Below are positions 50,419 through 50,652 of a DNA stretch of 64,000 bases, piece after piece. The stretch is taken from NCBI RefSeq assembly GCF_009914755.1, contig NC_060941.1. One strand, written 5' to 3'. Position 1 is the first letter of the stretch; each line of letters starts with the position of its first letter. The notes under the pieces were generated by a model. The model had not been told where the DNA came from and did not search any database. It saw only the letters and a program-made list of their open reading frames with translations. The position numbers and the translations under genes are program-made. Origin of the DNA: the human T2T-CHM13v2.0 reference genome, Homo sapiens.

Positions 50419-50652
50419 ATGAAGATCTTCGTGAAGACCCTGACTGGAAAGACCATCACCCTGGAGGTGGAGCCCAGTGACACCATCGAAAATGTGAAAG
50501 CCAAGATCCAGGATGAAGAAGGCATCCCCCCCGATCAGCAGAGGCTCATCTTTGCAGGCAAGAAGTTGGAAGATGGCCGCACTCTTTCTGACTACAGCAT
50601 CCAGAAAGAGTCGACCCTGCACCTGGTCCTGCGCCTGAGGGGTGGCTGTTAA
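50419..50652 (+). CDS. UBBP4: UBBP4 ORF B, ubiquitin variant UbKEKS (Q2K, K33E, Q49K, N60S) + C-terminal Cys
   Basis: 77 aa MKIFVK...IQDEEG...AGKKLE...DYSIQK...LRLRGGC; 72/76 identical to ubiquitin, with I44, K48, K63 and LRLRGG intact. Confidence 0.9.

What the first reader, a model, noticed from the sequence alone, without database searches (positions are those of the whole stretch)
50419..50652. Pseudogene-encoded ubiquitin variant UbKEKS: a parallel ubiquitin-like modifier
Seen: an intact 76-aa ubiquitin plus Cys, with Q2K, K33E, Q49K and N60S. It loses the K33 linkage site and gains lysines at 2 and 49 (next to K48), while L8/I44/V70 and LRLRGG are preserved, so processing and E1 activation are plausible. 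Known (from memory): UBBP4 has been reported to express UbKEKS, which is conjugated to a distinct protein set including lamins and does not target proteins to the proteasome. This is the most significant system in the window, but it is not undescribed. Its enzymes, chain types and evolutionary constraint are the open questions.
Basis: partly seen in the sequence, partly recalled or inferred. Interest (0 to 1): 0.85.

Follow-up and report, generated by a model that had tools for sequence, protein, structure and literature searches.

The report
Known ubiquitin variant UbKEKS in UBBP4
This is the already published UbKEKS reading frame, the intact fourth ubiquitin repeat of the duplicated pseudogene UBBP4, and its sequence alone neither shows nor excludes that evolution has kept it for a purpose.

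Summary
Window 50419-50652 (+) is a 77-codon ORF: ubiquitin with Q2K, K33E, Q49K and N60S, a terminal Cys, then TAA. It is the only 100% copy in T2T-CHM13. It matches Ubbp4-B1 = UbKEKS of Dubois et al. 2020 (PMC7066184), so the finding is already known.

What I add:
- UBBP4 lies in a duplication of at least 21.6 kb of the UBB locus, 7-11% diverged in non-coding DNA.
- UbKEKS is a second cistron. ORF1 (repeats A1, A2 and frameshifted A3) stops at TGA 50408-50410, 8 nt before the UbKEKS ATG. Nine ATGs in exon 2 precede that ATG.
- The UbKEKS frame is open upstream from 50290. It encodes the end of A3...LRLRGG, directly before M1.
- On its own lineage the repeat has 4 non-synonymous and 4-5 synonymous changes. 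That is about the neutral rate, and the ratio does not differ from six processed UBB pseudogenes (82:55; Fisher p = 0.72 or 0.49). Constraint is therefore unproven.
- PDB chain 6xqc_A scores exactly as UbKEKS would.

Neither primary paper's main text addresses how ORF2 is translated or whether it is conserved in primates.

The parts
47785..64000 (+). Segment duplicated from the UBB locus (chr17:16282254 onward). It continues past the window end to about extended coordinate 76694, which corresponds to chr17:16303869.
   Evidence: Colinear megablast matches at 86-93% identity. The upstream edge lies at a masked repeat, 47758-48056.
48638..49028 (+). UBBP4 exon 1 (NR_144546.2). The equivalent of the main UBB transcription start is at 48940. 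The donor at 49028 aligns with the UBB donor.
   Evidence: RefSeq table and coordinate mapping through the alignment. CCAAT boxes and an HSE-like block are conserved, but the UBB TATA-like box is altered at 48911-48919.
49029..49729 (+). Intron retained from UBB. This marks an unprocessed duplicate.
   Evidence: 701 aligned bases, 10.0% different from the UBB intron. The acceptor aligns with the UBB acceptor.
49730..50794 (+). UBBP4 exon 2: four ubiquitin repeats plus the 3' UTR.
   Evidence: RefSeq annotation, and TRF finds period 228 x 4.0 copies.
49736..50410 (+). ORF1, 224 aa: A1 (49736-49963, 8 aa changes including L73R), A2 (49964-50191, T55S only), A3 (from 50192, frame lost), stop TGA at 50408-50410.
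   Evidence: Same anatomy as Fig. 1b/2a legends of PMC7066184.
50299..50304 (+). C-run of 6 in repeat A3 (7 in A2 and B1). This is the site of the 1-base deletion that breaks the polyubiquitin frame.
   Evidence: Sequence read, and the alignment gap at repeat position 108.
50290..50418 (+). Open stretch in the UbKEKS frame upstream of its ATG. It encodes A3 residues 37-76 (with R54G) and ends ...LRLRGG directly before M1.
   Evidence: The open frame is 120 aa. The [11 protein letters not shown] core is unique to this locus.
50411..50418 (+). 8-nt spacer between the ORF1 stop and the UbKEKS ATG.
50419..50652 (+). UbKEKS (Ubbp4-B1) ORF: 76-aa ubiquitin variant, Cys77, then TAA.
50772..50777 (+). 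AATAAA polyadenylation signal, shared with UBB, 17 nt before the annotated transcript end.
   Evidence: and the 3' UTR alignment.
53306..61337 (.). About 8 kb present here but absent from the UBB locus. It consists mostly of masked interspersed repeats.
   Evidence: Gap in colinearity and masked-repeat intervals. Not examined further.

Best explanation
The ORF is Ubbp4-B1 = UbKEKS. It is the fourth and last ubiquitin repeat of UBBP4, an unprocessed duplicate of the polyubiquitin gene UBB lying near the chr17 centromere.

Shown here:
- The duplicate kept the UBB promoter region, intron, four-repeat coding exon, terminal Cys codon and poly(A) signal.
- Repeat A1 corresponds to UBB repeat 1, A2 and A3 to UBB repeat 2, and B1 to UBB repeat 3.
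- A3 lost one C from a C-run, so ORF1 ends 8 nt before the B1 ATG and B1 stands as a separate downstream cistron.
- B1 keeps every residue I checked for E1 activation and receptor binding: R42, R72, LRLRGG and the L8/I44/H68/V70 patch.

Published, not tested here:
- The protein is detectable at roughly 1/700 of ubiquitin.
- HA-tagged UbKEKS is conjugated to a partly distinct protein set (lamins, PCNA, histones). These conjugates do not accumulate on proteasome inhibition.
- Deleting the UBBP4 coding region in HeLa slows growth and alters nucleoli.

Inferred mechanism:
- Low-level translation of B1. Termination-reinitiation at the stop/8-nt/ATG junction or 5'-truncated transcripts are the likeliest routes.
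- Removal of Cys77 by a ubiquitin C-terminal hydrolase.
- Activation by the ordinary ubiquitin E1, then conjugation.
- Altered reading of the conjugates, because K33 is lost and K2 and K49 change the surface next to K48.

My estimates: identity 0.99; real endogenous translation about 0.8; a function maintained by selection about 0.4.
For: - ORF and substitutions.
- Single 100% locus among 55 protein matches and 46 DNA matches in the genome.
- Diagnostic peptide cores are encoded only here.
- Intron and exon boundaries map base for base onto UBB.
- The duplication covers at least 21.6 kb of the UBB locus.
- Pfam ubiquitin domain.
- PDB chain 6xqc_A (76 aa) gives 154.6 bits and E = 1.9e-45 against the query. 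This is identical to the local phmmer score of UbKEKS residues 1-76. Wild-type ubiquitin gives 147.9 in both runs.
- Published anatomy, conjugation, MG132 insensitivity, SILAC targets, knockout with rescue, and AQUA figures (0.23 vs 142 fmol/ug): PMC7066184 Results and Discussion.
- Nucleolar and apoptosis phenotype: PMC10537958 abstract and Discussion.
- All four repeats retain 6-7 of 7 CpGs, and the promoter and intron have CpG o/e of 0.74-0.80. This fits a locus that is unmethylated and active in the germ line.
Against: - Nine ATGs in exon 2 precede the B1 ATG, three of them in strong context (A at -3, G at +4). ORF1 is 224 codons long, which is unfavourable for reinitiation.
- No unusual RNA structure at the junction: z = -0.51, compared with -0.82 to +0.21 at four control junctions.
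- B1's own lineage carries 4 non-synonymous and 4-5 synonymous changes. This does not differ from six processed UBB pseudogenes (82:55; Fisher p = 0.72 or 0.49).
- Its 8-9 changes fall within the 7.6-12.9 expected from half the flank divergence.
- Under neutrality, an ORF with that many changes still has about a 0.75 chance of having no stop.
- The neighbouring repeats are visibly decaying: the A3 frameshift and A1 L73R.
- All functional work that I read comes from one group. It rests largely on HA-tagged over-expression and on HeLa clones in which the whole coding region, not B1 alone, was excised.
- The PRM assay used one peptide and had an overlapping contaminant peak.
- RefSeq RS_2025_08 still calls the gene a transcribed pseudogene.
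Confidence: 0.85

Rival explanations
1. Neutral relic. B1 is simply the repeat of a decaying UBB duplicate that has not yet been hit by a disabling mutation. The co-duplicated promoter keeps the locus transcribed, and a trace of protein is made. Because it still looks like ubiquitin to E1, E2 and E3 enzymes, it gets conjugated. No function has been maintained by selection.
For: - N:S of 4:4 (or 4:5) against 82:55 in six processed pseudogenes, p = 0.72 or 0.49.
- Lineage substitution count of 8-9 against a neutral expectation of 7.6-12.9.
- P(no stop) is about 0.75.
- A3 is frameshifted and A1 carries L73R.
- Abundance is about 1/700 of ubiquitin.
- CpG retention is equally high in the dead repeat A3, so it reflects the locus and not selection on B1.
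Against: - The knockout phenotype was rescued by HA-UbKEKS.
- Enrichment on lamins: a Ub:UbKEKS ratio of about 20:1 against about 700:1 in whole extract.
- All four changes sit at polar positions, and none touches the hydrophobic patch or the tail. By contrast, A1's changes include L73R, L50R and I36N.
- With only 8-9 substitutions, the tests have almost no power to detect constraint.
Confidence: 0.4
2. Frame-restoration route. UbKEKS is not started at its own ATG. It is released by deubiquitinases from a longer precursor that entered the B1 frame upstream. Possible causes are a -1 ribosomal slip or a transcriptional slip on the C-run at 50299-50304, or an allele with 7 C. Any of these would give an A1-A2-A3-B1 polyubiquitin.
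For: - The B1 frame is open from 50290 and encodes ...LRLRGG immediately before M1.
- The lesion is a single base in a homopolymer run: 6 C here against 7 C in A2 and B1.
- A -1 shift on that run reads I-P-P-D-Q, as in the parent.
- The very low abundance fits a rare event.
Against: - No A3-frame peptide is among the unique peptides listed for A1, A2 and B1.
- From recall: C-only heptamers are poor -1 slippery sites in eukaryotes, and slippage on 6-base runs is rare.
- No stimulatory structure is predicted downstream.
- The frameshift was already reported for the 1988 cDNA.
Confidence: 0.15
3. The knockout phenotypes come from another product of the locus and not from UbKEKS. Candidates are the A2 variant (T55S), the ORF1 polyprotein, or the UBBP4 RNA itself.
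For: - Both CRISPR strategies excise the whole coding region, 715 or 1659 bp.
- A2 is conjugated and was found reproducibly in the purifications of 11 baits in an interactome re-analysis.
Against: Lamin A localisation and nucleolar size were rescued by transient HA-UbKEKS. The UbKEKS PRM signal fell in the knockout.
Confidence: 0.1
4. The peptides assigned to UbKEKS come from somewhere else, such as another ubiquitin pseudogene, a variant allele of a canonical ubiquitin gene, or a chemical artefact. On this reading the ORF is not translated.
For: There are many ubiquitin-like loci in the genome: 55 protein matches at E <= 1e-10. The single quantified peptide co-eluted near a contaminant.
Against: - Back-translated patterns for [11 protein letters not shown] and [10 protein letters not shown] hit only this locus. 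One extra degenerate match on chr18 encodes a different peptide.
- The signal fell in the knockout.
- Closed regions and alleles in other people could not be checked.
Confidence: 0.06

Closest known systems
UbKEKS / Ubbp4-B1 (Dubois et al. 2020, Nat Commun 11:1306, PMC7066184)
   Same: Identical in every respect tested: the four substitutions, the terminal Cys, its position as the second ORF after a frameshifted third repeat, and the UBBP4 locus with its intron.
   Different: Nothing differs. T2T-CHM13 carries the same anatomy as that described from GRCh38 and three cell lines.
Canonical ubiquitin, last repeat of UBB (chr17:16284682-16284915)
   Same: 72 of 76 residues match. It has the same Cys77 and TAA, the same repeat-3-specific synonymous marks at repeat positions 216, 222 and 228, and the same 3' UTR and poly(A) signal.
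   Different: Q2K, K33E, Q49K and N60S. It is not in frame with the preceding repeats. There are 11 nucleotide differences in 234 bases.
Ubbp4-A2 (T55S), the second repeat of the same gene
   Same: Same locus. It is also conjugation-competent according to the paper.
   Different: It has one substitution only and lies in ORF1. Its conjugates accumulate with MG132, like those of ubiquitin. It is only 2.2% diverged from UBB repeat 2, which points to later sequence exchange with UBB.
Other pseudogene-encoded ubiquitin variants (UbP5 from RPS27AP5, UBBP3, UBA52P6, RPS27AP1/11; Meller et al. 2024 preprint, passages only)
   Same: Ubiquitin variants with a Gly-Gly end, encoded by annotated pseudogenes and tested by HA-tagged expression.
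   Different: Different loci and substitutions. According to PMC7066184, UBBP1, 2, 3 and 5 are processed copies, whereas UBBP4 is an unprocessed duplicate with its own promoter and intron.
UBB+1 (frameshifted ubiquitin made from UBB mRNA; recalled, not checked here)
   Same: An aberrant product of a UBB-type repeat array that arises at a repeat junction.
   Different: UBB+1 lacks G76 and cannot be conjugated. UbKEKS keeps LRLRGG. The GAGAG motif here overlaps the ORF1 stop at 50408-50410, so the dinucleotide loss after it would lie downstream of that stop and could not bypass it.
Dedicated ubiquitin-like modifiers such as NEDD8 and SUMO (recalled)
   Same: The proposed role is alike: a low-abundance parallel modifier with its own target set. 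The paper itself draws the SUMO1 chain-terminator analogy.
   Different: Those have their own E1 and E2 enzymes and are ancient and conserved. UbKEKS is 95% identical to ubiquitin, no dedicated enzyme is known, and it sits in a duplicate whose non-coding divergence from UBB is only 7-11%.

Membership tests
Ubiquitin family, conjugatable modifier (Pfam PF00240) | Ubiquitin domain over its full length | tested here: met
   PF00240 at 111 bits against a cut-off of 25.4, residues 3-74 on profile positions 1-72 of 72.
Ubiquitin family, conjugatable modifier (Pfam PF00240) | C-terminal LRLRGG followed by a removable extension | tested here: met
   ...LRLRGG-C-stop, the same tail as UBB.
Ubiquitin family, conjugatable modifier (Pfam PF00240) | Hydrophobic patch L8/I44/H68/V70 and E1-contact arginines R42/R72 (the roles of these residues are recalled) | tested here: met
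   All six residues are present in the translation.
Ubiquitin family, conjugatable modifier (Pfam PF00240) | All seven canonical lysines | tested here: not met
   K33 is replaced by E, and K2 and K49 are added. It is therefore a variant and not canonical ubiquitin.
Ubiquitin family, conjugatable modifier (Pfam PF00240) | Beta-grasp fold | tested here: inconclusive
PDB chain 6xqc_A scores exactly as UbKEKS 1-76 would, which suggests a solved structure exists, but I could not read the entry.
Ubiquitin family, conjugatable modifier (Pfam PF00240) | Covalent attachment to substrates | not testable with these tools
   Published only: HA-Ubbp4-B1 gives a high-molecular-weight ladder (PMC7066184 Results).
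UbKEKS as defined by Dubois et al. 2020 | Q2K, K33E, Q49K and N60S, and no other change | tested here: met
   Searches compared.
UbKEKS as defined by Dubois et al. 2020 | Second ORF of UBBP4, after three repeats of which the third is frameshifted | tested here: met
   Searches compared.
Unprocessed (duplicated) pseudogene of UBB | Parental intron and flanking DNA co-duplicated | tested here: met
   Donor and acceptor map onto those of UBB. Colinear homology runs from 47785 to beyond the window.
Unprocessed (duplicated) pseudogene of UBB | Disabling lesions relative to the parent | tested here: met
   1-base deletion in A3, and 8 replacements in A1 including L73R.
Protein-coding gene kept by purifying selection | Deficit of non-synonymous changes | tested here: inconclusive
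   4 N: 4-5 S against 82:55 in processed pseudogenes, p = 0.72 or 0.49. Against Nei-Gojobori sites the binomial P is 0.095 or 0.038. There are too few changes to decide.
Protein-coding gene kept by purifying selection | Slower evolution than the neighbouring non-coding DNA | tested here: not met
   8-9 lineage changes against 7.6-12.9 expected.
Protein-coding gene kept by purifying selection | Open frame and substitutions conserved in other primates; depletion of disrupting alleles in people | not testable with these tools
   No primate genomes or population data were available. The two protein searches could not resolve variants because the database is clustered at 90% identity.

The most novel reading that the evidence does not exclude
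UbKEKS output depends on a recoding or coupling event and not on an ordinary start. One version is termination-reinitiation across the 8-nt gap after ORF1. The other is frame restoration on the 6-C run of repeat A3. Restoration would produce a four-repeat precursor from which deubiquitinases release UbKEKS at the intact ...LRLRGG|M junction. On this reading UBBP4 would be a natural mammalian bicistronic or recoded polyubiquitin, with the supply of the modifier set by the rate of a rare translational event. The A3-frame peptide [15 protein letters not shown], whose core is unique to this locus, would be the direct test.
Probability: 0.15. Interest if true: 0.55.

Novelty: already known. Interest (0 to 1): 0.3.

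Why it matters
If UbKEKS is a selected modifier, part of what is catalogued as ubiquitylation is really a second code. DiGly remnants and most antibodies cannot tell the two apart, and this second code would have different consequences: no proteasomal targeting, and effects on lamin and nucleolar biology. That claim is already published.

This re-examination adds two checks that the main texts of the two primary papers do not discuss.

- From this single genome, the repeat's substitution pattern cannot be told apart from neutral drift. The case for function therefore rests wholly on cell-line experiments, and primate and population comparisons are the cheapest decisive tests.
- The ORF is a downstream cistron behind nine ATGs, so how any protein is made from it is a real gap. 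There are concrete, testable alternatives.

Tried and rejected
**Primate orthologues by protein search**
- (UbKEKS, 77 aa): 739 of 762 candidates passed and the best 120 were listed. None was above 95% identity. 7238 candidates from samples alone were left out.
- (ORF1, region 1-76): 1778 of 1778 candidates passed and the best 120 were listed. None was above 89% identity. 6222 candidates were left out.
- Both lists are ranked by the summed score of polyubiquitins, and the database is clustered at 90% identity, so a 95%-identical variant cannot surface.
- The four proteins I fetched (P0028, P0118, P0042, P0084) do not carry the four substitutions.
- I did not use the third search.

**PDB 6XQC.** A paper search found one unrelated paper. 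The link to UbKEKS rests only on the equal scores.

**A special RNA element at the ORF1-stop/ORF2-start junction.**
- The fold z-score is -0.51, and four control junctions give -0.82 to +0.21.
- Rfam gives 0 matches in the window.
- I saw no TGGGA motif (the calicivirus-type reinitiation motif, recalled) in 50300-50420 when reading.

**Molecular misreading at the GAGAG motif (the UBB+1 route, recalled) as a way to bypass the frameshift.** Rejected. The motif overlaps the ORF1 stop at 50408-50410, and the dinucleotide lost after it would lie downstream of that stop.

**Leaky scanning to 50419.** Rejected as a main route because nine upstream ATGs lie in exon 2.

**Selection as the cause of the low divergence of A2 and A3 (2.2% and 1.8%).** Rejected. 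A3 is broken yet equally similar to UBB, so later sequence exchange with UBB is the better reading: P(A2+A3 <= 10 differences) is 0.02 to 0.00008.

**** is a bacterial-type promoter and terminator scan. It has no bearing on a human gene, and I disregard it.

**Literature on the ORF2 translation route or primate conservation.**
- 'reinitiation', 'IRES', 'Kozak', 'primate' and 'chimpanzee' occur 0 times in the main text of PMC7066184.
- 'primate', 'evolution', 'second ORF' and 'species' occur 0 times in PMC10537958.
- Searches: 'UbKEKS' (11 papers); 'UBBP4' (47 papers, 40 listed, titles and abstract starts only); a five-term search.
- Supplements were closed and I did not request them. Supplementary Figs 4-6, Supplementary Table 2 and the PRIDE peptide files of PMC7066184 may bear on the frameshift sequencing, on ribosome footprints over ORF2 and on guide positions.
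- Subscription journals are not covered.
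Full report
**1. Observation**

Window 50419-50652 on the + strand translates to a 77-residue protein followed by TAA. The mechanical ORF list gives the same ORF. I compared it with the three repeats of the parent gene UBB, translated from chr17:16284226-16284915 of the same genome. It differs at four residues: Q2K, K33E, Q49K and N60S. Each is a single-base change, at repeat positions 4, 97, 145 and 179.

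L8, I44, H68, V70, R42, R72 and the LRLRGG tail are intact. The extra Cys codon and TAA are those of the last UBB repeat. Pfam's ubiquitin model matches end to end at 111 bits against a cut-off of 25.4.

**2. Anatomy of the locus**

- RefSeq lists two UBBP4 transcripts. One has exon 1 at 48638-49028. The other starts about 59 kb before the window and uses the small exons at 27186-27252 and 28754-28876. Both end in exon 2, 49730-50794.
- Exon 2 holds a 4.0-copy tandem array of period 228.
- Repeat A1 (49736-49963) has eight replacements, including L73R.
- Repeat A2 (49964-50191) has T55S only.
- Repeat A3 (50192-50418) has lost one C from a run that has seven C in A2 and B1 and six here, at 50299-50304.
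- Because of that deletion, the first ORF (224 aa) runs out of frame and stops at TGA 50408-50410.
- Repeat B1 starts 8 nt later at 50419.
- By shared synonymous marks, A1 corresponds to UBB repeat 1, A2 and A3 to repeat 2, and B1 to repeat 3.
- This is exactly the anatomy in the Results and figure legends of Dubois et al. 2020, who named the fourth repeat Ubbp4-B1 = UbKEKS (PMC7066184).

**3. Uniqueness**

- A DNA search of the whole assembly with exon 2 gave 46 matches. One was at 100% (this locus), followed by UBB at 96% over the last three repeats and the 3' UTR.
- A protein search gave 55 matches at E <= 1e-10. One was at 100%. The next best, at 95%, were UBB and UBC repeats.
- The back-translated pattern for the core of the variant peptide [11 protein letters not shown] hit this locus only (1 match).
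- The pattern for [10 protein letters not shown] hit this locus plus one degenerate match on chr18, which encodes a different peptide.
- Closed regions of the reference are not covered by these searches.

**4. Origin**

- The UBB donor, the UBB acceptor and an alternative UBB start map base for base onto 49028, 49730 and 48638.
- Colinear homology with the UBB locus starts near 47785, at a masked repeat. It is interrupted by about 8 kb of mostly masked repeats at 53306-61337. It continues past the window end to about extended coordinate 76694, matching chr17:16282254-16303869, roughly 21.6 kb of the parent locus.
- UBBP4 is therefore an unprocessed duplicate, as published.
- A passage of the T2T centromere preprint places it between the HSat3 and alpha-satellite arrays of chr17.

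Divergence from UBB is uneven:

| Segment | Divergence |
|---|---|
| Far upstream | 11.3% |
| Promoter | 9.3% |
| Intron | 10.0% |
| A1 | 8.8% |
| A2 | 2.2% |
| A3 | 1.8%, plus the deletion |
| B1 | 4.7% |
| 3' UTR | 3.5% |
| Downstream | 6.7% and 6.6% |
| Further downstream | 9.1% |

A2 and A3 are too similar to UBB for the age of the flanks: P(10 or fewer differences in both together) is 0.02 to 0.00008, depending on the flank rate used. A3 is broken, so selection cannot explain this. Later sequence exchange with UBB is the likely cause (inference).

From K2P of 0.07-0.12 and a recalled primate rate near 1e-9 per site per year, the duplicate is some tens of millions of years old. This is a rough inference.

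**5. Is B1 constrained?**

I polarised the 11 differences between B1 and UBB repeat 3 using the last repeats of six processed UBB pseudogenes from the same genome (L006-L010 and L012).

- Four non-synonymous changes (positions 4, 97, 145, 179) and four synonymous changes (30, 81, 117, 148) are private to or derived in B1.
- Positions 42 and 93 are derived in UBB.
- Position 27 is ambiguous.

For a neutral control, I took the same six pseudogenes. I dropped six sites where UBB repeat 3 is the odd one out, and I dropped the first 20 positions of L012, which align poorly. The control gives 82 non-synonymous to 55 synonymous changes.

- B1's 4:4 or 4:5 does not differ from the control (Fisher p = 0.72 or 0.49).
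- Against simple Nei-Gojobori site counts the binomial P is 0.095 or 0.038. That model ignores the CpG and transition bias that the control captures.
- B1's 8-9 lineage changes lie within the 7.6-12.9 expected from half the flank divergence.
- With that many changes, the chance of having no stop is about 0.75.

Neutral drift is therefore not rejected. With so few changes, constraint is not excluded either.

One qualitative point favours constraint. All four replacements are at polar positions away from the hydrophobic patch and tail, unlike those of A1.

One point that looks like constraint is not. All four UBBP4 repeats keep 6-7 of 7 CpGs, against 0-4 of 7 in the processed copies. The dead repeat A3 does so too, and the promoter and intron have CpG o/e of 0.74-0.80. 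This points to a locus that is unmethylated in the germ line and not to selection on B1 (inference).

**6. How could B1 be translated?**

- In the spliced NR_144546.2 transcript, three ATGs in exon 1 and nine in exon 2 precede the B1 ATG.
- Three of the nine (49890, 50118, 50345) have A at -3 and G at +4. B1's own context is G at -3 and A at +4.
- Leaky scanning is therefore implausible.
- ORF1 and the 21-codon ORF from 50345 both end at the TGA 8 nt before the B1 ATG. Termination-reinitiation is geometrically possible, but it is disfavoured after a 224-codon ORF (the latter is established knowledge, recalled).
- The junction has no unusual predicted RNA structure: z = -0.51, against -0.82 to +0.21 at two other UBBP4 junctions and two UBB junctions. 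Rfam finds nothing in the window.
- In the B1 frame, the sequence is open from 50290. It encodes the rest of A3 (PPDQQR...LRLRGG, with R54G) directly before M1 of B1.
- Any ribosome that reaches that frame there would make a precursor with a normal deubiquitinase site. A -1 shift on the C-run reads I-P-P-D-Q as in the parent.
- The peptide core [11 protein letters not shown] from that stretch is unique to this locus. It would be diagnostic.
- Neither primary paper's main text contains the words I searched for on this question.

**7. What is published**

From the Results and Discussion of PMC7066184:

- Unique peptides for A1, A2 and B1 were found in public data sets.
- HA-tagged A2 and B1, but not A1 or A3, form conjugates.
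- B1 conjugates do not accumulate with MG132.
- In the SILAC pull-downs, lamins, PCNA and histones were among the proteins enriched with UbKEKS. Proteasome subunits were enriched only with ubiquitin.
- K49 and K48/K49 diGly peptides were seen after transfection.
- UbKEKS measured 0.23 fmol/ug against 142 for ubiquitin.
- The Ub:UbKEKS ratio was about 20:1 on lamins against about 700:1 in whole extract.
- Excising 715 or 1659 bp of the coding region in HeLa slowed growth, placed lamin A in nucleoli and enlarged nucleoli. HA-UbKEKS rescued this.

From the abstract and Discussion of PMC10537958:

- The whole-cell proteome showed no significant global change.
- Nucleolar organisation and composition were altered.
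- Apoptosis increased.

Caveats I take from the texts:

- The work comes from one group.
- It relies on tagged over-expression.
- It uses HeLa clones in which all four repeats were removed.
- Quantification used one peptide, with an overlapping contaminant peak.

A solved structure probably exists. PDB chain 6xqc_A (76 aa, named Polyubiquitin-B) scores 154.6 bits and E = 1.9e-45 against my query. This is exactly what UbKEKS 1-76 scores locally. Wild-type ubiquitin gives 147.9 in both runs. I could not open the entry.

**8. Verdict**

It is already known.

The best-supported mechanism is a low-abundance, conjugation-competent ubiquitin variant made from the downstream cistron of a transcribed UBB duplicate. 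Cys77 would be removed as in UBB, and the protein would be handled by the ordinary ubiquitin enzymes.

- Shown here: the anatomy and the retained residues.
- Published: translation, conjugation and phenotypes.
- Inferred: the translation route and the enzymology.

Whether it is a selected parallel modifier or a still-intact relic is open. I put the relic reading at about 0.4.

Noticed in passing
window 49964-50418 compared with L014 (UBB repeat 2): Repeats A2 and A3 are only 2.2% and 1.8% diverged from UBB repeat 2, while the flanks are 7-11% diverged. A1 and A2 share S55 and a synonymous T at repeat position 204, and A3 and B1 share a synonymous T at position 117. This pattern suggests gene conversion with UBB and homogenisation within the array after the duplication.
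   Followed up: partly
window 48911-48919: The TATA-like CATAAATTT that sits about 25 bp before the main UBB start reads CACAAATTT in UBBP4. The two CCAAT boxes and the HSE-like block upstream are conserved. This may relate to RefSeq placing the UBBP4 exon 1 start about 300 bp further upstream, at 48638.
   Followed up: no
window 53306-61337: About 8 kb is present in the UBBP4 copy but absent from the UBB locus. It consists mostly of about 300-bp masked repeats, and the blast hits look Alu-like. I did not classify its content.
   Followed up: no
window 49721-50622, minus strand: Long antisense ORFs (187 aa at 49721..50284 and 161 aa at 50137..50622) run across the ubiquitin repeats. This is probably a by-product of the repeat's codon composition. 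I did not compare with UBB.
   Followed up: no
PDB search: One PDB sequence group (example chain 4k1r_B; 8 entries, 12 chains) has a wild-type-ubiquitin score and carries 'Protein UBBP4' among its molecule names. This is a labelling artefact that could mislead searches for UBBP4 structures. The likely true UbKEKS chain (6xqc_A) is labelled Polyubiquitin-B.
   Followed up: partly
window 1-28876 and upstream: The second RefSeq transcript, NR_176224.1, starts about 59 kb before the window. It splices through two small exons (27186-27252, 28754-28876) straight into the ubiquitin exon, so the coding exon is also driven by a distant, non-UBB promoter.
   Followed up: no
literature, hg38 chr17:22204435: A 2026 medRxiv GWAS of young-onset Parkinson's disease lists rs145087783 in a table, with nearest gene UBBP4 (OR 2.68, p = 7.2e-9, I2 = 68%). 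I saw the table passage only. This is a nearest-gene label in a pericentromeric region with high heterogeneity. It is not evidence about UbKEKS.
   Followed up: no
window 49736-49963 (repeat A1): Dubois et al. note that the 1988 cDNA had a premature stop in the first repeat which is absent from the current reference and from three cell lines. T2T-CHM13 also has no stop there. Either the old sequence was in error or the site is polymorphic.
   Followed up: no
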